Positions 21,445 to 41,003 of a stretch of 64,000 bases of DNA are shown piece after piece. The number at the start of each line of letters is the position of its first letter. The stretch's first letter is position 1. A program made the translations under genes and the position numbers. The DNA comes from a virus. The notes below the pieces were generated by a model. It saw nothing but the letters and a program-made list of their open reading frames with translations, had not been told where the DNA came from and did no database searches. The stretch spans positions 1 through 64,000 of the IMG/VR virus record IMGVR_UViG_3300028025_006190; one strand, written 5' to 3'.

Positions 21445-24400
21445 ATGGCTGTTGTTGGTAGCGCTAATCTTATAGCGCGAGTACTTACCGACCGAATAGA
21501 TGAAGATCTACGTCGTGGCTTTTCCGACTCTAATCTCAAGGGGACGCACATCCAGGTCCGTCGTGCCGGAGAACGAATAAATAAGTCACTCATGGACACC
21601 TTTAGAAATGCTAGAGGTAGAAATCCATTTGAAAAGATCGCTAATGGACTCAGGGAACTAGCCCCGGGGGCAGAAGCGGCTGCGCTTAAGTTTAGATCTT
21701 TGACAAGAGCAAACCTTACCCTAGGAACTGCCCTAAACGTACTACTTGGTGGTCTATTTAGCGTACTCGGCGGGTTAACGTCTCTAGCAGGTGCGGCAGG
21801 AGGTGCGGCCGCTTCGTTAGGTGTTGTAGCAAATGGGGCATTTGCCTTAGTCGCTGGAATGATAGCAGCCTCGGTGGCCCTCCGAGGGGTTGGTAGGGCT
21901 CTTGGGGCCCTTAATAGGCAGTCTGCAGGGGCAGCTGACAATACTAGACAGGTGCAGCAAGCCGAGCAGGCTCTCGCACAGACTATTGAACGTAACCGAG
22001 AAACATTAATCAATGCAAATAACGAGGTTCGTAGATCTCAGCTTGCCCTGAATGAAGCAATTAAACAGGGCCAAGAAGAAATCCAACAACTTGGGTTCGA
22101 TGCCGAAGAAGCTGCTCTTTCTGAGAGCAGAGCTGCCCTCGAGCTAGACAAGGCTCGAGAGATACTTGCTCGTACCCAGGACCTTCCGCCAAACTCTCGT
22201 GCCCGCAAAGAAGCCGAGCTCGCTTTCCAAGAAGCAGAGCTAAATCTTCGAAGAGCAAAAGACAGATCTTCTGATCTCAATGAAGAGCAGGATCGTCTCG
22301 CTAAGACTGGAGTCTCTGGTACCCAGGTAGTTATTGACGCGACGAACGACTTAGCAGAGGCAGAAGCCAACAAAGCAAGAGTTGTTAGAGATGGAATTAG
22401 GGATCAGATCGCGGCTCTTGATGCACTCACCGCTGCGCAGGAGAGAGCAGCTGGTGGGGGTGGAGCAAACCCACTTGAAGGACTCAATGAGGCTCAAATA
22501 ACTTTTGTTCGGTTCTTGCAGTCAATTCAGCCTAGGCTCAAGGAACTTAAAGCCGCCATTTCTGGTGCGTTTCTCGTTCCTCTGCAAGAGGCAATTACAG
22601 TCTTAGTAGACAAAGCACTTCCCACCATTGAAACAGGAATGGTAAGGGTGGCCGGAGCAACCGGAACTGCAGCGAAGTATTTTGCGAATGCTGTGGCCGA
22701 TGGTACAAACCTAGCTAACTTAGGAAAAGTTTTCGAGAGCTCGGGAAAAATTATTGAGATCTTCGGTAAAGCTGCCGGAAGCCTATACGGGGCTCTTCTC
22801 TCTGTAATGGTAAATCTAATACCTGCTGCAGAACAATTTGCAAACTTCCTAGACTCTACGTTTGGAAAATTTGACGCCTACATGAAGGACGTCAAAAATC
22901 AGCCAGCTATTACAGACTTTTTTGAGCGGTCCAAAAATGCTCTTGCAGACTTCGGTGAGATTTTCGGCAACATCTTTGGTGGCTTTGGGAAGATCATTAA
23001 CGCCAACCTGGGTCCAGGTACTGGCGGTCAACTTCTTCTTGATTGGCTAAAAGAGTCAACTCAAAGGTTCCAGGATATGGACTCCACATTTGATGGAGCC
23101 GGCGGTATGCGCCAGTTTTTCCGAGATGTTGCTCAAAATACTAAGTCCATTATGCAGTCGATCGGTGCCCTGCTTGGGGAACTGATCAAACTCGGGGCTA
23201 ATCCGGCTATCGGCGAGACTTTTGACATTTTAAAGGCCGGGGCACCCTTTATTGGCATAATGGCAAAAGAAGCCGTTGAATCAGGCCCGGCAATGGCAAA
23301 CTTGATTGTTGTTTTGTCCGAAATCGGATCACTTCTTGCTGATTCCTCGGTGGCCGATGCTTTCTTCCAACCAATGATTTTCCTTGCGGAAAAAGTCAGA
23401 GATGTCTTAAAGAACGAGACAGTCCAAGCAATTCTGGATGTGCTAGGGCCCATATTTGGATTTATAGCTGGTGTCGGCGTTATGGCCCAGTTGGCTGGAT
23501 TTCTTGCTTTAGTTGTTGTTGGGAAAGTTATTCCCGCGTTTGCCGCCCTAGGCAAGGTGTTTGCTTTCATAGCTGCAAACCCAATAATTGTTGTTCTTGC
23601 TGCTCTTGCTGCTTTAATGGTTTATTTGTATACCACCAACGAAGAGTTTGCTGCGTCACTCAATCAAGTATTTAGCGAAATCTCTGCAGCATTTAGTGGG
23701 GTAATGTCAGAAATTGGTCCGCAAATAGCAGCGGCTTTCTCTGAGCTAGGCCCAATTCTGGCTGATCTTGCCCTCGCACTTGGAGAGGTAATACTAACTA
23801 TTCTCCCGCTTCTGATCCCGCTTATTCAAATAATTGCCCCGCTAATTGGCTCACTAGTCGAGCTGTTCGGTGGGCTAGTTACTATTTTGGCTGGCGTTCT
23901 TCTCGATACGATCAATGCGCTATTGCCGACCCTTGAGCTTCTCGTCAAGTCATTTGGAGACATAGTAGTTGCCATTATGCCTCTAGTTAAGGATTTACTT
24001 GATGCACTGGTTCCGGCCTTCCTTGAAATCGTTGAGGCTATCCTGCCACTTATCCCAATTCTTCTTGACGCTCTTCTTCCCGTATTTAATCAATTGGTGG
24101 AAGCTATTGTTCCAGTAGTTCTTCAATTGGCTGAGCATCTTATTCCGGTGATCCAACAATTAGCAGAATTTATAGGACCAGTAGCTGCGATAGTTGCTGA
24201 AGCGATTGGACAGCTAGCTCCAATATTCCTCGGTCTTATTCAACAGATGATGCCACTTGTTGGGGTTATTATTGACACACTTATTCCGGCATTTATGGCA
24301 ATAGTAGATGCTGTTATGCCTGTAGCTTTGAGTATCATAGAAGCGTTGCTTCCGGTAATTATTCAGCTTATGGACGCTCTTCTTCCACTAATAACTATGA

Positions 24401-25110
24401 TTATTGAAGCCCTAGTACCTGTATTTTTGATGCTCGCAGAGGCAATTGTTCCACTAATCGAATTGATTCTTCCGCCACTAGTTAGCCTAATTGAGATGCT
24501 TATGCCAGTTATTCAATTGCTTGCTGATCTTCTAATAGGGCCCCTCTCCTTCGCCATCGGAATTCTATCTGGGCTGTTCAAACTCCTGACTGGAGACTTT
24601 GAGGGTGCCGGTAAGGTATTTGGTGACGTATTCCAGGGGATGCTCGACTTTGGTAAAAAAATTGTTAATGACCTCATTGGTATCTTTGAGGGAATGATCA
24701 ACTTCGTCATTGACGGATTCAATAGAATGATCGACTTTATTAATAGTCTAAAAATTGAAGTACCCGACTGGGTCCCCCTTATTGGCGGTCAGACCCTGAG
24801 CCTAAATATCCCTCGTATTGGGAGGGTGTCAATCCCGCGTCTTGCTGAGGGTGGAGTGGTCCCCGCCCGCGCCGGAGGCACCCTTGCTCAGGTTGCCGAA
24901 GCGGGTCGCCCAGAGCGGATCGAGCCCCTCGATGCAAACGGTATGTCTAAGCGTGACCGATTCATTGTCGATCTGATTAAATCTCAACAGGGTGACCAAA
25001 AAGGTATTAATATTACAGTAAACCCATCACCGGGTATGGACGAACAAGCACTGGCACAGGCCGTGTCTCGTCAATTGGCTTTCGAGATGCGTAGAGGTTC
25101 GGTTTACTAA
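21445..25110 (+). CDS. Tape measure protein
   Basis: 1221 aa; Ala/Leu-rich helical sequence with a coiled coil, a hydrophobic core and ~11-aa periodic L/I/P repeats; C-terminal PRLAEGGVV...AEAGRPE. Confidence 0.92.
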   Translation: MAVVGSANLIARVLTDRIDEDLRRGFSDSNLKGTHIQVRRAGERINKSLMDTFRNARGRNPFEKIANGLRELAPGAEAAALKFRSLTRANLTLGTALNVLLGGLFSVLGGLTSLAGAAGGAAASLGVVANGAFALVAGMIAASVALRGVGRALGALNRQSAGAADNTRQVQQAEQALAQTIERNRETLINANNEVRRSQLALNEAIKQGQEEIQQLGFDAEEAALSESRAALELDKAREILARTQDLPPNSRARKEAELAFQEAELNLRRAKDRSSDLNEEQDRLAKTGVSGTQVVIDATNDLAEAEANKARVVRDGIRDQIAALDALTAAQERAAGGGGANPLEGLNEAQITFVRFLQSIQPRLKELKAAISGAFLVPLQEAITVLVDKALPTIETGMVRVAGATGTAAKYFANAVADGTNLANLGKVFESSGKIIEIFGKAAGSLYGALLSVMVNLIPAAEQFANFLDSTFGKFDAYMKDVKNQPAITDFFERSKNALADFGEIFGNIFGGFGKIINANLGPGTGGQLLLDWLKESTQRFQDMDSTFDGAGGMRQFFRDVAQNTKSIMQSIGALLGELIKLGANPAIGETFDILKAGAPFIGIMAKEAVESGPAMANLIVVLSEIGSLLADSSVADAFFQPMIFLAEKVRDVLKNETVQAILDVLGPIFGFIAGVGVMAQLAGFLALVVVGKVIPAFAALGKVFAFIAANPIIVVLAALAALMVYLYTTNEEFAASLNQVFSEISAAFSGVMSEIGPQIAAAFSELGPILADLALALGEVILTILPLLIPLIQIIAPLIGSLVELFGGLVTILAGVLLDTINALLPTLELLVKSFGDIVVAIMPLVKDLLDALVPAFLEIVEAILPLIPILLDALLPVFNQLVEAIVPVVLQLAEHLIPVIQQLAEFIGPVAAIVAEAIGQLAPIFLGLIQQMMPLVGVIIDTLIPAFMAIVDAVMPVALSIIEALLPVIIQLMDALLPLITMIIEALVPVFLMLAEAIVPLIELILPPLVSLIEMLMPVIQLLADLLIGPLSFAIGILSGLFKLLTGDFEGAGKVFGDVFQGMLDFGKKIVNDLIGIFEGMINFVIDGFNRMIDFINSLKIEVPDWVPLIGGQTLSLNIPRIGRVSIPRLAEGGVVPARAGGTLAQVAEAGRPERIEPLDANGMSKRDRFIVDLIKSQQGDQKGINITVNPSPGMDEQALAQAVSRQLAFEMRRGSVY

Positions 25111-28100
25111 TGGCTAGGCAAAATCTACTTACCAACCCCAACTTCTCCCTTAGTACTGGGTGGAGGGGGCGTGAAGGTGCCACAATCCTCTTTACTCACT
25201 TCCTCGGTCGAACCTGCGTAGAGGTGACAAAGAAAGATACCCCCAAATCTGGCGTCGAGACAATTGACTACATTCCTATATTACAAAATCCAGCAAATCT
25301 TCCATATGCATATTCTGCCTATATCTATATTCCAACAGGTCAGCCCTCAGGAGAGTTTGTTGTCTCTATTGAGTGGTACACGTTTAGCTCTGGCACATAC
25401 ACCTCAATCCTAGAGACACAGTCTGATCCAACAGAACTCAGCTCCGGGATTGGTGAGTGGACCAGACTAACTCAGGTGACTGCAGCACCTAACAACGCGA
25501 CCCATGCAAAGTTCCGCATCTACCAAACACAGACGGGGACAAATGAAGCAAAGTTCCTAGCGGACTACGCCCTATTTGAGCAGTCAAGCTTTGTTGGTGG
25601 ATTTATTGATAATCTTACCCAGGCACAAGAGACGCAGATTGTTGACCGAGCACTTTCGATATATGAAGACGACTCTCACATAACTAAATTGCAGCTCAAT
25701 GCTGATGTTCAGATTGGGGATTTTGTCTTCAATACGATTGATGAAGATCAGATTATCTGGATTTGCACAGACATTGAGGGATGGTGGAATACTGCCACAC
25801 CCGAGACACCCAACATTCCTCGAGGTTTCCAAGACGGATCTTACGACGTATCCGGGAGATACGCTGCAAGAGATCTCACTCTAACGGGAGTATTCATTCC
25901 ACAAGGGCCAGGCGATGTGGGAGTTGGACGACAGAAACTGTTGGCGGCAATTGATCTAGTTCGTCAAGGTGCTTGGCTGCGGACAAGTGAGGAGCCAACA
26001 AGAGCATCTTTTGTTCGCCTCACCGGTAGACCGCAAATTCAGACAGTAAATGCTCGAGGCCGAACAGAGTTCTCGATTGCTCTTCGTGCGGGTGACCCAA
26101 TTAAATACAAGTGGGATGACACCAAAATTGATGGAATTAGTTCTCAAGAAATAGATCTTGCGTCGGAAGCTCCAGACGATTTTGGAACTTTGAGCATCAT
26201 CAATGAAGGCGATGCTACGGTAACGGCAAAGCTAATTTTTACCGGCCCGCTAGGTTCTGGGTCTACTGTAGAGGTCTATCACGAAAACAGTGGTACAACT
26301 GAGGTGATGACACTCATCGAGCCTCTCCGCAGTAACGGTGCCGTCGCTACAGTGACTGACGTCGAGATCACAAACAATGTTGCTCTTGTTACTACAGAAG
26401 AAGCTCACGGTCTATCTATTGGTGAGGTTGTGTCTATTGTTTCTACAATAAATGACGATGTTAACGTCAGTTCAGCCACAATTTCTTCAGTTACGGACAC
26501 ACTTCCATACACTCTGAGCTACACAATCACACATCCCGTCGATGACTTCCCCAAAGAAACTTCTGGCGGGACCGTTAATCTAGTATCAAAAGACGTGATG
26601 GTAGTGGACAACTACCACAGAAATGTCACACTAAATGGCGATGAAACAGGCTACAGATCAAAGCTAGATACTTTGACTGATTGGATAACACTCGAGCCTG
26701 GTCTAAATACTTTTACCTTCACTGACAGTATTGATCCGGATTCTGTAAGACTTAAATACTATGACGGAACTACAAATAAAATTACGCTAACAACAACAGA
26801 TTCTCATTTTCTTACTCAAAATAATGTTATATCTATTGAGTTTCCTACATATGCAGAAATTGCATTTAAAGAAGTTACTAGCAATATAGTCACTATTACC
26901 ACAGCTAACTCACACGGATTTTCTGTCGGAGATCAAATAGAGGTGAGTACAACCCTAAGTACCACCGTCACACAAAAAGAGATAACTTCTAATACTGCCA
27001 CCCTTACCGTGGCAGATGGCTCAGCAATTTCTGACAATGATGTTGTCTCTGTGTCGATCCCTGCTACTGCTCAGGTTATAGCAAAGAGTCGTTCGGGGGA
27101 CTTGATAACTCTTACTACCTCAAATGCCGCCACTGGCCACGGATTCTCCAATGGAGACGAGGTGACAGTTGGATTCCCGCTAAGTGCACTAGCGACAAAT
27201 AAGCAACTTATTGACAATGTGGCAACTATTACTACGGCCCAGAACCATAACTTTGTGCTGAATGATGAAATAAATGTAGCATTTCCGGAGACAACCAGTG
27301 TCAACCAGAAAACTGTATCTGACACCCAGGTAACCCTCAGGACCGCCACGGATCATGGGTTTTCTGTGGGGGACAGAATCACTGTTGCACTCCCCACGGG
27401 ATCAGCGGTCACACTAAGTGACTCTAGAAAATATGGTGGTGCAGCATATCTAGGTGTGACGTTTATACAGTCCTCGGGTGTAACTAGAACTCTAACTACA
27501 ACTGATCCCCACAACTTTGCAGCAGGAGATCAAATTTACGTTGCAAGTATAAATACCGACTACAACGGAACACACACCATCATCAATACCCCCACCACCA
27601 CGACACTTACATATGATGTGACTGGTGGAACTTCTATAACTAATGCGTCACCGATCTCCACTGACGGAATAGGTACCGTAACAAACACCACTACGAGCTA
27701 CCGAGTAACACTCAATACCGCAGCAGCACACAACTTTTCAGTTGGAGACTCGATCTTGGTGGGTGTTGGACTCCCGACTACAGCCACTATAACCAACAGA
27801 CTAGCCAGCTCTACTGAGTGCACACTCACATCAGCTGCGCACAAATACAGCGTTGGTGAAGTGATCACTGTGGCCCTGACGGGTTCTGGTGTAGATAGGT
27901 ACAACGGAACATTTGCTATCTCTGCTGTGGCCACCGACACGTTTACTTATGTGTTTGCTGGAGCTAGTGAATCATCTATCGCGGCCACTGGCTCGGTAAC
28001 TAACTTGACGATCCAAAATATCTACAATGGAACAAAAGTTATTGATACGGTCCCGACTAATAGTTCTTTCACCTATTTGGTTTATGGACAAGACTCGTAC

Positions 28101-28226
28101 ACAACGAGTACAAAGGCAGGATCTAGTGCATCTATCTCTAATCTGACGAATACTGCACTTAATGGAACAAATTTAGTTCTTACGGCAGCTTCCGGTACGA
28201 CTCTTCAATACACAAGGACGGTTTAG
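25110..28226 (+). CDS. Distal tail (Dit-like) protein, N-terminal part, with a carbohydrate-binding-like domain and nested beta-domain halves
   Basis: First gene after the tape measure gene. NLLTNPNF N-terminal module; Dit-like IEGWW...DG...GRY.AR.LTL.G...DPIKY and WITLEPGLN; repeated xHGFSVGD units. Confidence 0.75.
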   Translation: MARQNLLTNPNFSLSTGWRGREGATILFTHFLGRTCVEVTKKDTPKSGVETIDYIPILQNPANLPYAYSAYIYIPTGQPSGEFVVSIEWYTFSSGTYTSILETQSDPTELSSGIGEWTRLTQVTAAPNNATHAKFRIYQTQTGTNEAKFLADYALFEQSSFVGGFIDNLTQAQETQIVDRALSIYEDDSHITKLQLNADVQIGDFVFNTIDEDQIIWICTDIEGWWNTATPETPNIPRGFQDGSYDVSGRYAARDLTLTGVFIPQGPGDVGVGRQKLLAAIDLVRQGAWLRTSEEPTRASFVRLTGRPQIQTVNARGRTEFSIALRAGDPIKYKWDDTKIDGISSQEIDLASEAPDDFGTLSIINEGDATVTAKLIFTGPLGSGSTVEVYHENSGTTEVMTLIEPLRSNGAVATVTDVEITNNVALVTTEEAHGLSIGEVVSIVSTINDDVNVSSATISSVTDTLPYTLSYTITHPVDDFPKETSGGTVNLVSKDVMVVDNYHRNVTLNGDETGYRSKLDTLTDWITLEPGLNTFTFTDSIDPDSVRLKYYDGTTNKITLTTTDSHFLTQNNVISIEFPTYAEIAFKEVTSNIVTITTANSHGFSVGDQIEVSTTLSTTVTQKEITSNTATLTVADGSAISDNDVVSVSIPATAQVIAKSRSGDLITLTTSNAATGHGFSNGDEVTVGFPLSALATNKQLIDNVATITTAQNHNFVLNDEINVAFPETTSVNQKTVSDTQVTLRTATDHGFSVGDRITVALPTGSAVTLSDSRKYGGAAYLGVTFIQSSGVTRTLTTTDPHNFAAGDQIYVASINTDYNGTHTIINTPTTTTLTYDVTGGTSITNASPISTDGIGTVTNTTTSYRVTLNTAAAHNFSVGDSILVGVGLPTTATITNRLASSTECTLTSAAHKYSVGEVITVALTGSGVDRYNGTFAISAVATDTFTYVFAGASESSIAATGSVTNLTIQNIYNGTKVIDTVPTNSSFTYLVYGQDSYTTSTKAGSSASISNLTNTALNGTNLVLTAASGTTLQYTRTV

Positions 28227-28229
28227 TAA

Positions 28230-31211
28230 ATGCCTAGTTTTGTTTTTGGTGCTGGCGGCACAAGTAACAATGGTGCTAGCTATACGGGTGATGTCTGGGT
28301 TCGCTCATTTGCTGGATATGCATCTGGGTTCAACAACAACATCTCTGGTGCTGGTGTGGTTGTCTATGACAGCATTACTATTAACGGCACCTACAGTAAT
28401 GCCTACCCCACGTACTCGGATGGCTATGCGTATTTGAACAGGGCCGGCGGCGGCTTTATGTACTTTAGCCGTTTTCAGGGTAACGGCGGGGTGGTTACAG
28501 ACAATACAGGGTATTCGTGGACCAATGGTGGGCTCCAAGGCACCGTCACATGGTCGACAGTCCCCGCTGTAATTAGCGCCCCAACCGCTACAGCAAGCAC
28601 TACGGCTCAAGGTACTGTTGCTCTTTCGTGGACCGCTCCCAACAACGGTGGCGCTACAATCACGAACTACAGAATTTTCTTCGAGACAAGTGCTAATGGT
28701 TCTACTGGCTGGTCTGGTAAAACAGAGGTAACAAAATCAACAAGTACGTCCACAAGCCATACGGTCACCGGTCTAACAGTCGGAACTTACTATCGATTTT
28801 ATGTAAATGCCGTAAACTCGCGCGGCACAGCAAACTACTCGACAGTTTCTGCTGTCCGCCAAGCCCCCGGTAACCCGGGAGCACCGACTGCTCTTACGGC
28901 CACAAAAAGTACTGCCGCTGTTGGGTCAGTGGTTCTCGGCTGGACCGCCCCGTCAGTGGTATCGAGCGGTATCACTGGCTATAACGTCTACGCCAGACTT
29001 TCTACTGGATCTAGAACAAGGATAGCTACTCTCACAGGGCCAACAACCTCTTTTACTGCAACAGGCCTAGTGCAGCGTGGCAGCTATACATTCGATGTGG
29101 CCGCTCGAAGCGCATTCTCAGACACCAATGCAACTGAGAGTACGGCATCGGCCACGGCCACCGCCCAGGCATCTGGTGTTTCGTCCCCGCCACTGAACTT
29201 GGTTGTTACTACTGGTGGTCTGGAAAATCAGCTTGTACTCAACTGGAGTGCCCCCACTGATACGGCAAGTGACCTCCAAGGATATTATGTGTACCGATCT
29301 ACGGGGACCTTGGCTGCAACAATCTCTGGTTCAACAACAACAGCTACTATCACTGGGCTGATTCCCGGGCAAAGCTATGGTTGGGATGTTCGTGCAAGAA
29401 CGACGCTTTCGGAGACACTTTCTACATTTGGTGAAGCATCGACAATCATATATGGTGTCCCCCTAGGAGAGCCAGACGCACCCACAATGACGTCCCTAAC
29501 GGTACTGTCAACTGTTGCCGGAGCAGCCAGACTTGTTTGGATCCCAAGCCCAGCGGCTGTTTACGCCAAAATCTACCGCACCTACCCGGATGGCAGCGCC
29601 TCGGACTCACTAGTTGCATCAGTCAAAGGGACAAGCTACGTCTTCTACGGCCTAAACCCCAATACTACGTACTACTACAAGATGTCGTCTGTCAGCTCTA
29701 CTAGTGAGGGACCGAAAACCTCGTCCTCTTTGTCTGTCACTCCGCTATCTACATCAGTACAAACCATTACCACCGCCTCGACTGTCACTAATACATCAAA
29801 CTCGGCAGTTTTTAATGGGACATATTTTGTTTCAAGTATTTTGGATGCTCAGCGATTTTCATATCTTCGAACAGCTTCAAATTTGTCCTCTACAGCAATT
29901 CCCGAATCATTTGGTGTACTGAGCAACCGAACAGGTGATGATCTTAGTGGAACATTTACAATATCTACGGGATCTCCAACAAGTAATCAATTTACTTACA
30001 CAAGCACACCTTCCTGGGGCACTCAGAACATCCCTACAACCCCCGTGAGTGTGTCGGTCACTAATAACACCAGTGCGAGATTTAATGGTGTATATACCGC
30101 ACAGTCTGACGCAAGCACAATTACGTACTCGGTAGCCGCGGGGTCTAATGTCTCGAGCAGGGCTGCTTCCGGGTCTGTAGTAAATCAAAGTAACAGCACA
30201 TATAACGGTGTATTTACCATTACGGAGGCAACAGAGACCACCTTTACATACCCAGCGGCTGCAAGCGGCTCCGATCAAGAAACTACCGCATCGGCGGGGG
30301 CGGTGGATAATCTCACCAACAGGACCATCTACAATACTGACGAGACTCTTGTTACAAGTGTCCCAGCGTACAACAGGCTGGTATATGACGCAAAACCTTC
30401 ATTTGTAAACAGATCATATGATTTTGCGACTAGCACTGCGGACTCCGATCCTGGAGATGGGAAGATTAGATTTAACAACGCCACTCTTGGGTCCGTGTCT
30501 TCGATCTATATCAGCAACAAGGACACCAGCCTTGCTAGCCAAGTAGCTTGGTATCAAATGTGGAATGATGGGCTATCTGTCACCAATAAGGGTAAGTTGA
30601 TTGTCGCGAACTCTTCTGGGCTGTGGAGCTTTACCGTATCCGGAACAGTAGTTTCAGCTAATGGCTACTACAGAATCCCGGTGTCCTCTCCGGTGGGAAC
30701 TTCTGTCCCCGCTGCTGGGGCCGTAGCCGTGGCTTTTGTTCCATTTGGATTCACGGATGCCCCCTACAAGTTCAGTACCAGCACAACTGTTGGCGACCCA
30801 GGTAGCGGGTACATCAGATATAACCAATCTTCTATACAAAGTGTTACTCAGTTGATCATCGACAGATATTCCAGTGAAACTAGCCCGGTTGATAGATTGA
30901 ACTGGATCAATAGTTGGTATAATCCGCTGTTCTCATCAACACAAACAGGGCGAATCTTTATTAGAAGTCGCAATACTATGGCGGAGTTCGCCCTGACTGG
31001 GGATGCTGTTTATAACTCCGGAGGATCCTACTTTACTGCCCCCGTCACTTGGAAAGCAGGAGATGCGGGAATTTTGGCAGCTGATTTCCCTGTATTGATT
31101 ACTTTTGTTCAAAGTAAAAATGCGGAGCTATATCAGCCGTACGGGGACGTACGAAAAGCTAATAGTATTGCAAACCTGGAGATACAATACCGCTCCGGTT
31201 GGCTTGGCTAG
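28230..31211 (+). CDS. Tail-tip protein with four fibronectin type III domains, five beta-domain C-halves and the Dit terminal strand
   Basis: Four FN3 patterns (LxWxAP...Y.F.V.A) at ~28560-29750; (F/Y)NG.(F/Y)...F.Y units at 29799-30398; two DPGxGxIR(F/Y)N repeats; ends LEIQYRSGWLG. Confidence 0.75.
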   Translation: MPSFVFGAGGTSNNGASYTGDVWVRSFAGYASGFNNNISGAGVVVYDSITINGTYSNAYPTYSDGYAYLNRAGGGFMYFSRFQGNGGVVTDNTGYSWTNGGLQGTVTWSTVPAVISAPTATASTTAQGTVALSWTAPNNGGATITNYRIFFETSANGSTGWSGKTEVTKSTSTSTSHTVTGLTVGTYYRFYVNAVNSRGTANYSTVSAVRQAPGNPGAPTALTATKSTAAVGSVVLGWTAPSVVSSGITGYNVYARLSTGSRTRIATLTGPTTSFTATGLVQRGSYTFDVAARSAFSDTNATESTASATATAQASGVSSPPLNLVVTTGGLENQLVLNWSAPTDTASDLQGYYVYRSTGTLAATISGSTTTATITGLIPGQSYGWDVRARTTLSETLSTFGEASTIIYGVPLGEPDAPTMTSLTVLSTVAGAARLVWIPSPAAVYAKIYRTYPDGSASDSLVASVKGTSYVFYGLNPNTTYYYKMSSVSSTSEGPKTSSSLSVTPLSTSVQTITTASTVTNTSNSAVFNGTYFVSSILDAQRFSYLRTASNLSSTAIPESFGVLSNRTGDDLSGTFTISTGSPTSNQFTYTSTPSWGTQNIPTTPVSVSVTNNTSARFNGVYTAQSDASTITYSVAAGSNVSSRAASGSVVNQSNSTYNGVFTITEATETTFTYPAAASGSDQETTASAGAVDNLTNRTIYNTDETLVTSVPAYNRLVYDAKPSFVNRSYDFATSTADSDPGDGKIRFNNATLGSVSSIYISNKDTSLASQVAWYQMWNDGLSVTNKGKLIVANSSGLWSFTVSGTVVSANGYYRIPVSSPVGTSVPAAGAVAVAFVPFGFTDAPYKFSTSTTVGDPGSGYIRYNQSSIQSVTQLIIDRYSSETSPVDRLNWINSWYNPLFSSTQTGRIFIRSRNTMAEFALTGDAVYNSGGSYFTAPVTWKAGDAGILAADFPVLITFVQSKNAELYQPYGDVRKANSIANLEIQYRSGWLG

Positions 31212-31243: not shown

Positions 31244-41003
<9,760 letters not shown>

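What the first reader, a model, noticed from the sequence alone, without database searches (positions are those of the whole stretch)
26742..31211. Matryoshka tail-tip arm split between two in-frame genes that must interlock
Seen: after the Dit-like WITLEPGLN segment, ORF 25110 runs through seven N-terminal halves of a beta domain (K...TLTT..H.F..GD...V) plus two complete copies, but closes only two of them (YNG/LNG...F.Y) before stopping. ORF 28230, after four FN3 domains, supplies exactly five C-terminal halves (FNGTY, LSGTF, FNGVY, YNGVF, YNTDE; 29799-30398) and ends with the Dit-type terminal strand LEIQYRSGWLG. The ORFs share a frame and are separated only by TAG TAA. Inference: one out-and-back polypeptide rod was broken near its tip, so five domains and the Dit ring are each completed by two chains, freeing a new N-terminus to display FN3 and a tip domain.
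Basis: partly seen in the sequence, partly recalled or inferred. Interest (0 to 1): 0.8.

Follow-up and report, generated by a model that had tools for sequence, protein, structure and literature searches.

The report
Phage tail arm split across two genes
In this phage the distal tail protein carries a long arm of small barrel domains nested inside one another. The arm and the last strand of the tail protein's own fold are divided between two neighbouring genes, whose products most likely have to fold together.

Summary
Gene A (25110-28226) is a distal tail protein (Dit). After its penultimate strand come seven N-terminal half-domains and two complete copies of an FCCH-like barrel, and only two halves are closed. 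Gene B (28230-31211) follows TAG TAA in the same frame. It has four FN3 domains, exactly five C-terminal halves and ends in YRSGWLG.

- **Dit strand:** related simple Dits end in that motif themselves. A profile of their C-termini is tiled by gene A (positions 6-64) and the end of gene B (63-80).
- **Conservation:** the split recurs in 15 gene pairs (27-76% identity in gene B), including cultured Microbacterium phages, always 5 open halves to 5 closing halves. No fused form was found.
- **Structure models:** a complex model pairs the halves in reverse order (N5-C5 to N2-C2 among the lowest-error contacts). It scores 0.66, best of 3 controls 0.00; 58 of 80 solved complexes and 2 of 110 mismatched pairs reached the mark. 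Alone, gene B's half-domain region is not confidently folded (pLDDT 29-51).

I rate obligate interlocking as likely (about 0.78). Trans-completion of the Dit fold rests on homology only. I found no description of this in the literature searched. This scan's first stage flagged the same stretch in another window (e1-6030600).

The parts
21445..25110 (+). Tape measure protein gene, directly upstream of gene A
   Evidence: PHROG tape-measure families, best 1e-59
25110..28226 (+). Gene A: Dit with an N-terminal sugar-binding-type module and the outward half of the arm (1038 aa)
   Evidence: PF22768 33.4 bits against a cut-off of 25; phrog_5577. Foldseek hits to the solved Dits 2x8k, 8zdo_m and 9m8o_I.
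25110..25601 (+). CBM22/CBM4-like jelly-roll domain (aa 1-164)
   Evidence: VIA-align Z 15.7, rmsd 3.0, 150 residues aligned to 1h6x and 1dyo
26232..26738 (+). Dit C-terminal domain lacking its last strand (aa 375-543). One complete FCCH-like domain is inserted at about aa 410-480.
   Evidence: Simple-Dit C-terminus HMM matches aa 484-543 to positions 6-64 of 80 only; N-half hit at 420-443
26754..27398 (+). Six consecutive N-terminal half-domains N1-N6 (aa 549-763). N1-N5 are left open in gene A.
   Evidence: N-half HMM hits. In the monomer model this part has lower pLDDT and the third strand of each half is not formed. These residues contact gene B's C-halves in the complex model.
27447..28109 (+). 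Tip cluster (aa 780-1000): complete domain, N8, complete domain, C8
   Evidence: HMM hits; pLDDT 85-93
28134..28220 (+). C6 (aa 1009-1037), which closes N6. Gene A ends right after it.
   Evidence: C-half HMM hit. Every gene-A homologue that lacks the YRSGW ending stops at this point.
28209..28232 (+). Junction: AAGGA Shine-Dalgarno-like motif inside the last codons of gene A, then TAG TAA ATG
   Evidence: Sequence. An SD-like motif lies 10-16 nt before the gene-B start in all 16 junctions.
28230..31211 (+). Gene B: return half of the arm plus the Dit terminal strand (993 aa)
28230..28559 (+). N-terminal domain of unknown fold (aa 1-110)
   Evidence: No family hit; pLDDT below 50 with a shallow alignment
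28560..29759 (+). Four FN3 domains (aa 111-510)
   Evidence: Pfam fn3 119 bits; pLDDT 77-91 and four seven-strand units
29772..30413 (+). Five C-terminal half-domains C5-C1 (aa 515-728)
   Evidence: C-half HMM. pLDDT is 29-51 alone, 82-84 with gene A and 32 with an unrelated protein.
30420..31109 (+). Two copies of a widespread domain of about 115 aa (aa 731-960), inserted between C1 and the Dit strand
   Evidence: 31% identity to the Pelagibacter phage HTVC010P tail protein. 1458 library hits, mostly to this part.
31155..31208 (+). Dit C-terminal strand ...LEIQYRSGWLG (aa 976-993)
   Evidence: Matches positions 63-80 of the simple-Dit HMM; the same ending is found on simple Dits
31244..35773 (+). 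Tal/hub-like minor tail protein. It follows gene B here and follows the Dit directly in phages with a simple Dit.
   Evidence: phrog_1885. It ends EWEVDKRG like the gene after simple Dits and has nested N...C halves within one chain.

Best explanation
Genes A and B encode the two chains of one structural unit of the tail tip.

Gene A supplies the Dit ring subunit. After the penultimate strand of the Dit C-terminal domain, the chain leaves and runs outward through six N-terminal halves of a small FCCH-like beta-barrel. It builds a tip cluster of complete and nested domains, then starts back by closing domains 8 and 6, and stops.

Gene B is translated separately from its own start codon, 3 nt after gene A's stop and probably coupled to it. 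After a free N-terminal domain and four FN3 domains, it supplies the C-terminal halves of barrels 5, 4, 3, 2 and 1 in that order, then two extra domains, then the last strand of the Dit C-terminal domain.

Five barrels, and probably the Dit domain as well, are therefore each built from two polypeptides. The result would be a very large, intertwined, non-covalent joint. It turns a simple out-and-back arm into a branched one that displays the FN3 array and the N-terminal domain.

Shown: the sequence grammar, its conservation, and the tiling of the Dit profile. Supported by models: reverse-order pairing of the halves, and failure of either part to fold alone. Inferred: the 1:1 stoichiometry on the Dit hexamer, co-folding during assembly, and a role in host adhesion.
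For: - **Grammar:** five open N-halves in gene A and five C-halves in gene B.
- **Conservation:** the same 5:5 count in all 15 gene pairs examined, 27-76% identity to this window's gene B. These include the cultured Microbacterium phages Cece, Pumpernickel and Zooman. Six more gene-B clusters each have five C-halves and a YRSGW ending.
- **Fixed break point:** every gene-A homologue that lacks the YRSGW ending stops just after C6, even the 2021-aa and 2260-aa forms.
- **Dit strand:** about 60 loci with simple Dits have Dits that end Y[RK]S[GA]W[LI]G themselves and are followed directly by the Tal-like gene. Pfam PF22768 covers that ending (41-97 of 97 in L010) but stops at 86 in Cece's gene A. 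The simple-Dit HMM is tiled by gene A (6-64) and gene B (63-80).
- **Complex model:** score 0.66, best of 3 controls 0.00. The mark was reached by 58 of 80 solved complexes and 2 of 110 mismatched pairs. The runs agree in at least 93% of contacts and the partner's pLDDT is at least 82. There are about 900 contacts. The lowest-error pairs are A704-723 with B529-567, A666-668 with B588-590, A630-648 with B619-651 and A596-608 with B664-672, which is the reverse order. The partner's pLDDT falls to 32 when gene A's chain is replaced.
- **Monomer models:** gene B's C-half region has pLDDT 29-51 and its last 32 residues are below 50. Gene A's open halves have lower confidence and lack their third strand, while the closed part scores 85-93.
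- **Positional orthology:** C-halves best match the same position in other phages in 218 of 360 comparisons, against 20% expected by chance.
- **Junctions:** an SD-like motif precedes every gene-B start, and the gaps are -1 to 24 nt.
Against: - There is no experimental structure, and no mass-spectrometry evidence that both chains are in the virion.
- The complex score is a model's own confidence. Halves of a known fold tend to pass by likeness to intact domains, and my own alignments differ from those used in the calibration.
- The contact between gene B's terminal strand and gene A's Dit domain was not scored in the complex job. That part rests on homology alone.
- Pfam aligns gene A up to position 93 of 97, using SVRLKYY. 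The window's gene A may therefore keep a remnant of a final strand, although my HMM and the Microbacterium homologues do not support this.
- One relative (L058) has a 2102-aa gene B with five C-halves but no YRSGW anywhere in the locus.
- The count is always five, so co-variation of the numbers could not be tested.
Confidence: 0.78

Rival explanations
1. The two proteins fold independently. Gene A's N-half repeats form their own beta-hairpin rod. Gene B's C-half repeats form a separate repeat structure. Gene B docks on the Dit only through ordinary surface contacts or its C-terminal peptide.
For: In the monomer model of gene A the open halves still form hairpins with pLDDT 59-83. Model confidence is not a measurement.
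Against: The halves carry the same motifs as the two halves of complete domains in the same proteins. Gene B's region is unfolded alone and with an unrelated partner (pLDDT 32). The counts match 5:5 in every pair.
Confidence: 0.1
2. Genes A and B are made as one polypeptide by read-through or recoding, and the split is only apparent.
For: The two ORFs share a frame in 11 of 16 junctions (binomial p 0.004, not corrected for relatedness). The gaps are very short.
Against: The window has two consecutive stops, TAG TAA. Five of 16 junctions are out of frame, and one has overlapping ORFs. Every gene B has its own start codon and an SD-like motif. No fused ORF was found in three searches.
Confidence: 0.04
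3. The halves interlock as described, but between neighbouring subunits. Gene B closes the arm of one Dit subunit while its terminal strand completes the Dit domain of the adjacent subunit, linking the hexamer.
For: In this window about 250 residues (two extra domains) separate C1 from the terminal strand. That is enough to reach a neighbour. Nothing tested here tells same-subunit from neighbouring-subunit completion.
Against: In the Cece-type relatives only about 35 residues separate C1 from the strand. That favours return to the same subunit, next to N1.
Confidence: 0.08

Closest known systems
Simple Dit of related actinobacterial phages, for example the Actinomycetia phage DSL-LC01 minor tail protein (WJZ48525.1, 385 aa)
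   Same: 41% identity over the Dit core. It has the same inserted complete FCCH-like domain, the same WITL.PGLN strand and the same YRSGWLG ending.
   Different: It is a single chain with no arm: the terminal strand follows the WITL.PGLN strand after about 20 residues. In the window about 500 residues of gene A and all of gene B lie between them.
Microbacterium phages Cece gp81/gp82, Pumpernickel gp95/gp96 and Zooman gp83/gp84, all annotated only as 'minor tail protein'
   Same: The same two-gene architecture, the same break after C6, five open halves to five closing halves, and a gene B ending in RSGW[AS]G.
   Different: About 35% identity. They lack the two extra domains before the terminal strand. 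Some carry large sugar-binding-type inserts in the Dit. They are cultured phages, so they can be tested.
'Evolved' Dits of Gram-positive siphophages, with carbohydrate-binding modules inserted in the C-terminal galectin-like domain (from my own knowledge of the field; not found in the papers searched)
   Same: A Dit whose C-terminal domain hosts inserted adhesion modules that project from the ring.
   Different: Known evolved Dits are single chains with one or two inserted modules. Here the insert is a rod of nested domains six to eight deep, and both it and the host domain are shared with a second gene product.
Donor-strand complementation in chaperone-usher pili (established knowledge)
   Same: It works in a similar way: an incomplete fold in one chain is completed by strands from another chain, giving a very stable non-covalent joint.
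   Different: Pilins donate one strand to one Ig-like fold. Here half of each of five barrels, plus one strand of a sixth domain, come from the partner. There is no homology.
FCCH-type beta-barrel decorations on siphophage tail tube proteins (PMC13576161)
   Same: A small barrel of the E1 FCCH type used as an external decoration on phage tail proteins. There are weak PF16190 matches here (17 bits in gene A, 39 bits in Cece's gene A).
   Different: There it is a single complete domain fused at a terminus. It is neither nested nor split.

Membership tests
Distal tail protein (Dit; Pfam PF22768 SPP1_Dit C-terminal domain) | Gene lies directly downstream of the tape measure gene | tested here: met
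   The tape measure gene is 21445-25110 and gene A starts at 25110
Distal tail protein (Dit; Pfam PF22768 SPP1_Dit C-terminal domain) | Profile match above Pfam's gathering score | tested here: met
   33.4 bits against a cut-off of 25, aa 489-550
Distal tail protein (Dit; Pfam PF22768 SPP1_Dit C-terminal domain) | Fold similar to solved Dits | tested here: met
   Foldseek: 2x8k_C E 1.1e-5, 8zdo_m 9.5e-5, 9m8o_I 1.6e-4, each with probability 1.00
Distal tail protein (Dit; Pfam PF22768 SPP1_Dit C-terminal domain) | Whole C-terminal domain, including the terminal YRSGW strand, in one polypeptide | tested here: not met
   Gene A covers positions 6-64 of the 80-position simple-Dit HMM and the end of gene B covers 63-80. 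Cece's gene A stops at 86 of 97 in PF22768.
E1_FCCH-like beta-barrel (PF16190) | Profile match above the gathering score | tested here: inconclusive
   Gene A scores 17.3 bits against a cut-off of 29.5. The homologue Cece gene A scores 39.0 bits. Many family members carry a precomputed PF16190 hit.
E1_FCCH-like beta-barrel (PF16190) | Six-stranded closed barrel fold of a single (hybrid) domain | not tested
The VIA list was filled by the N-terminal sugar-binding-type domain.
Fibronectin type III | Profile match above the gathering score | tested here: met
   119.2 bits with three stretches. Four units are seen in the model of gene B, aa 111-510.
Evolved Dit (Dit with modules inserted in the C-terminal domain) | Extra modules inserted within the C-terminal domain of the Dit | tested here: met
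   A complete barrel lies at about aa 410-480 inside the domain, and the arm leaves after HMM position 64 of 80
Evolved Dit (Dit with modules inserted in the C-terminal domain) | Single-chain Dit | tested here: not met
   The arm and the last strand are shared with gene B

The most novel reading that the evidence does not exclude
This would be a natural, obligate two-chain 'zipper'. Five consecutive beta-barrel domains and the host Dit domain would each be assembled from parts of two separately translated proteins. It would be built on a rod made by domain insertion nested six to eight deep. The split fixes the array at five shared barrels across a whole phage lineage. It also converts the Dit arm into a branched adhesion organelle present in six copies per virion.
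Probability: 0.7. Interest if true: 0.8.

Novelty: new variant of a known kind. Interest (0 to 1): 0.74.

Why it matters
- **Rod building:** if true, phages can build long rigid arms by recursive domain-in-domain insertion, far deeper than the one or two levels usually seen.
- **Trans-completion:** such a rod can be cut into two genes whose products complete each other's domains. This is donor-strand complementation scaled up to five half-domains plus a strand.
- **Annotation:** a whole class of 'minor tail proteins' in Microbacterium and aquatic actinobacterial phages would become part of the Dit.
- **Conservation:** it would explain why the arm length is frozen at five shared barrels.
- **Design and engineering:** it offers a natural template for very stable designed heterodimers, and for engineering what a phage displays at its tail tip.
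- **Testability:** cultured relatives (Cece, Pumpernickel, Zooman) carry the same architecture, so the idea can be tested directly.

Tried and rejected
- **Fused form:** I searched for a fused (unsplit) homologue three ways. The near-length search gave 109 hits. The longer-protein search gave 4 hits; P0125 and P0126 are long only because of inserts in the Dit and still end after C6. The scan of 1.84 billion representatives with gene B's C-terminal half was largely saturated by the 115-aa repeat domain. None was fused.
- **Tandem-domain Dits:** Dits with tandem complete domains (P0091-P0100) are single chains. Their insert sits before PF22768 position 38, so they are not unsplit versions of this arm.
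- **Co-variation of counts:** this could not be tested, because every pair is 5:5.
- **Read-through:** rejected, as set out under rival explanations.
- **Artefact or pseudogene:** rejected. The junction is identical in an 82%-identical relative from another metagenome, and the split is present in cultured phages.
- **Dit strand in the complex job:** gene B's terminal strand was included as a third chain, but only the partner chain is scored, so nothing can be said about it.
- **PDB sequence searches:** gene A, its arm and a simple Dit gave no match, or only a weak match to SPP1 Dit.
- **VIA-align second look:** the list was filled by the N-terminal sugar-binding-type domain and says nothing about the arm.
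- I used the search for related loci instead.
- **Literature:** six searches found FCCH-type decorations on tail tubes and recent mycobacteriophage baseplate structures. None described a nested or split Dit arm. This is absence from the held library only.
- **Noisy first scan:** a first regex scan for the halves was too noisy and was replaced by HMMs.
Full report
**Context.** The window carries a siphophage tail module on the + strand. In order it has a tape measure gene (21445-25110; PHROG tape-measure families down to 1e-59), gene A (25110-28226, 1038 aa) and gene B (28230-31211, 993 aa). Then come a Tal/hub-like minor tail protein (31244-35773, phrog_1885) and a collagen-like fibre with a tail-collar domain (35766-41003). 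The nearest named relatives are Microbacterium phages of about 190 kb and the freshwater Actinomycetia phage DSL-LC01.

**The observation.** Genes A and B are separated by TAG TAA and share a frame.
- Gene A starts with a CBM22/CBM4-like jelly roll (VIA-align Z 15.7, rmsd 3.0, 150 residues).
- A Dit follows (PF22768 33.4 bits against a cut-off of 25; phrog_5577; Foldseek hits to the solved Dits 2x8k, 8zdo_m and 9m8o_I).
- After WITLEPGLNTFTFTD the chain runs through six N-terminal halves of a small barrel (K.L.SN..TLTT...HGF..GD.V.V.LP), a complete copy, another N-half and a second complete copy. Two C-terminal halves (..NLTN..[YF]NG......T.[FY].Y) then close N8 and N6, and the ORF ends. Five N-halves stay open.
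- Gene B has an unassigned N-terminal domain, four FN3 domains (119 bits) and exactly five C-halves (aa 515-728).
- It then has two copies of a widespread domain of about 115 aa (aa 731-960) and ends LEIQYRSGWLG.

**YRSGWLG is the Dit's own last strand.**
- The simple Dit of DSL-LC01 (385 aa, 41% identical to gene A's Dit core) ends ...WITLAPGLNTIRLIDEGQANSTAIMRLFYRSGWLG.
- About 60 loci fetched from viral contigs have such simple Dits. They end Y[RK]S[GA]W[LI]G and are followed directly by the Tal-like gene ending EWEVDKRG.
- Pfam PF22768 aligns to the W of that motif in simple Dits (41-97 of 97 in L010; 38-97 in P0091). It stops at position 86 in gene A of phage Cece.
- An HMM of 40 non-identical simple-Dit C-termini (80 positions) matches every gene A only over positions about 6-64. 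It matches the last 17-18 residues of most gene Bs over positions 63/64-80. The Microbacterium-type gene Bs match more weakly or over longer spans that still run to position 79-80. In the window, gene A aa 484-543 match positions 6-64 and gene B aa 976-993 match 63-80.
- The two gene products therefore tile one Dit domain.

**Conservation.** I built half-domain HMMs from the repeats. I applied them to homologues from the protein search (109 hits) and to 100 loci.
- I hand-checked weak copies. All 15 complete gene pairs then have five open N-halves in gene A and five C-halves in gene B. Gene B in these pairs is 27-76% identical to the window's.
- The pairs include the cultured phages Cece, Pumpernickel and Zooman.
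- The number of closed inner domains and of extra inserts varies between pairs.
- Every gene-A homologue that lacks the YRSGW ending stops right after C6, including forms of 2021 and 2260 aa that are long only through inserts in the Dit.
- Six further gene-B clusters from the library of 1.84 billion representatives also have five C-halves and a YRSGW ending.
- C-halves are position-specific across phages: 218 of 360 best matches fall on the same position, against 20% expected by chance.
- No fused gene A-gene B form appeared in any search.
- One exception is L058. Its gene B is 2102 aa with five C-halves, but there is no YRSGW anywhere in the locus.

**The junction.** All 16 junctions have an SD-like motif 10-16 nt before gene B's start and a gap of -1 to 24 nt. 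Eleven are in frame (binomial p 0.004, uncorrected for relatedness), five are not, and the window has a double stop. This fits separate, probably coupled, translation and argues against read-through.

**Structure models.** The complex job used gene A aa 375-1038, gene B aa 505-730 as the partner and gene B aa 940-993 as a third chain, each with its own alignment.
- The verdict was that the model supports binding but does not show it. The score was 0.66 and the best of 3 controls was 0.00. The mark was reached by 58 of 80 solved complexes and 2 of 110 mismatched pairs. These counts hold only roughly here, because my own alignments and three chains were used.
- The runs agree in at least 93% of contacts, and the partner's pLDDT is at least 82.
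- The interface has about 900 contacts.
- The lowest-error pairs are A704-723 with B529-567 (N5-C5), A666-668 with B588-590 (N4-C4), A630-648 with B619-651 (N3-C3) and A596-608 with B664-672 (N2-C2). This is the reverse-order pairing that nesting predicts. N1 (549-586) and C1 (700-721) are also in the confident interface.
- With gene A's chain replaced by an unrelated protein, the partner's pLDDT falls to 32.
- Because the intact barrel is a known type of fold, part of this pass may reflect likeness to complete domains.
- AlphaFold2 on gene B alone gives pLDDT 77-91 for the FN3 domains, 29-51 for the C-half region and below 50 for the last 32 residues.
- AlphaFold2 on gene A alone gives pLDDT 85-93 for the closed part (731-1038). 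The open halves score 59-83, and only their first hairpin forms; the GD.V.V strand does not.
- The contact between gene B's terminal strand and the Dit domain was not scored, so that step rests on homology.

**Mechanism.** Each Dit subunit most likely carries an arm made by recursive insertion of one barrel into the loop of the previous one. The outward path and the tip are in gene A. The return path for barrels 5 to 1, and the final Dit strand, are in gene B. The break gives gene B a free N-terminus, from which four FN3 domains and an N-terminal domain branch off at the level of barrels 5 and 6. Gene A also carries an N-terminal CBM22-like module, and gene B carries two copies of a tail-fibre-type domain near the arm base. 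The whole assembly therefore looks like a multivalent adhesion device. That last point, the stoichiometry and the order of assembly are inference.

**Comparison with what is known.**
- Gene A is a Dit by position, profile and fold, but it fails the single-chain criterion.
- It resembles 'evolved' Dits in hosting inserted modules.
- It works like donor-strand complementation in pili, on a much larger scale.
- FCCH-type barrels are known as single decorations on tail tubes (PMC13576161).
- I found no description of nested or split Dit arms in six literature searches. The cultured homologues are annotated only as 'minor tail protein'.

**Earlier notes of this scan.** First-reader notes flag the same stretch and similar nesting in the Tal-like protein. 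They are not independent evidence. My HMM scan does show N...C nesting within the Tal-like chain.

**Verdict.** I class it as a new variant of a known kind and score interest at 0.74.

Noticed in passing
window 31244-35773: The Tal/hub-like protein after gene B shows the same half-domain grammar within one chain (HMM pattern NNCNCNNNNCC). It ends EWEVDKRG like the gene that follows simple Dits. Relatives show NNNNNNNNCCCC-type patterns (P0101, P0112).
   Followed up: partly
window 25110-25601: The Dit starts with a CBM22/CBM4-like jelly roll (Z 15.7 to 1h6x and 1dyo). Relatives carry up to several further copies inserted in the Dit, giving gene-A proteins of 1230-2260 aa (P0005, P0125, P0126).
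   Followed up: partly
window 30420-31109: Two copies of a domain of about 115 aa lie between the last C-half and the Dit strand of gene B. They are 31% identical to the Pelagibacter phage HTVC010P tail protein. The domain is very widespread (1458 hits at E up to 0.001) and its fold and function are unknown.
   Followed up: partly
L058:10063-16371: This relative's gene B is 2102 aa with five C-halves followed by about 990 residues of sugar-binding-like repeats. There is no YRSGW motif anywhere in the 17-kb locus, making it the one exception to the terminal-strand rule.
   Followed up: partly
L029:7001-12691: This pair adds one complete barrel before N1 in gene A and two complete barrels after C1 in gene B. 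Modules can evidently be added at the arm base on both chains while the five shared barrels stay fixed.
   Followed up: no
window 28230-28559: The N-terminal domain of gene B (aa 1-110) has no family match and a low-confidence model. The Microbacterium homologues have a different N-terminal domain, so the displayed head varies.
   Followed up: no
window 35766-41003: A 1745-aa fibre protein has a phage tail collar domain and long collagen triple-helix repeats (Pfam Collagen 163 bits).
   Followed up: no
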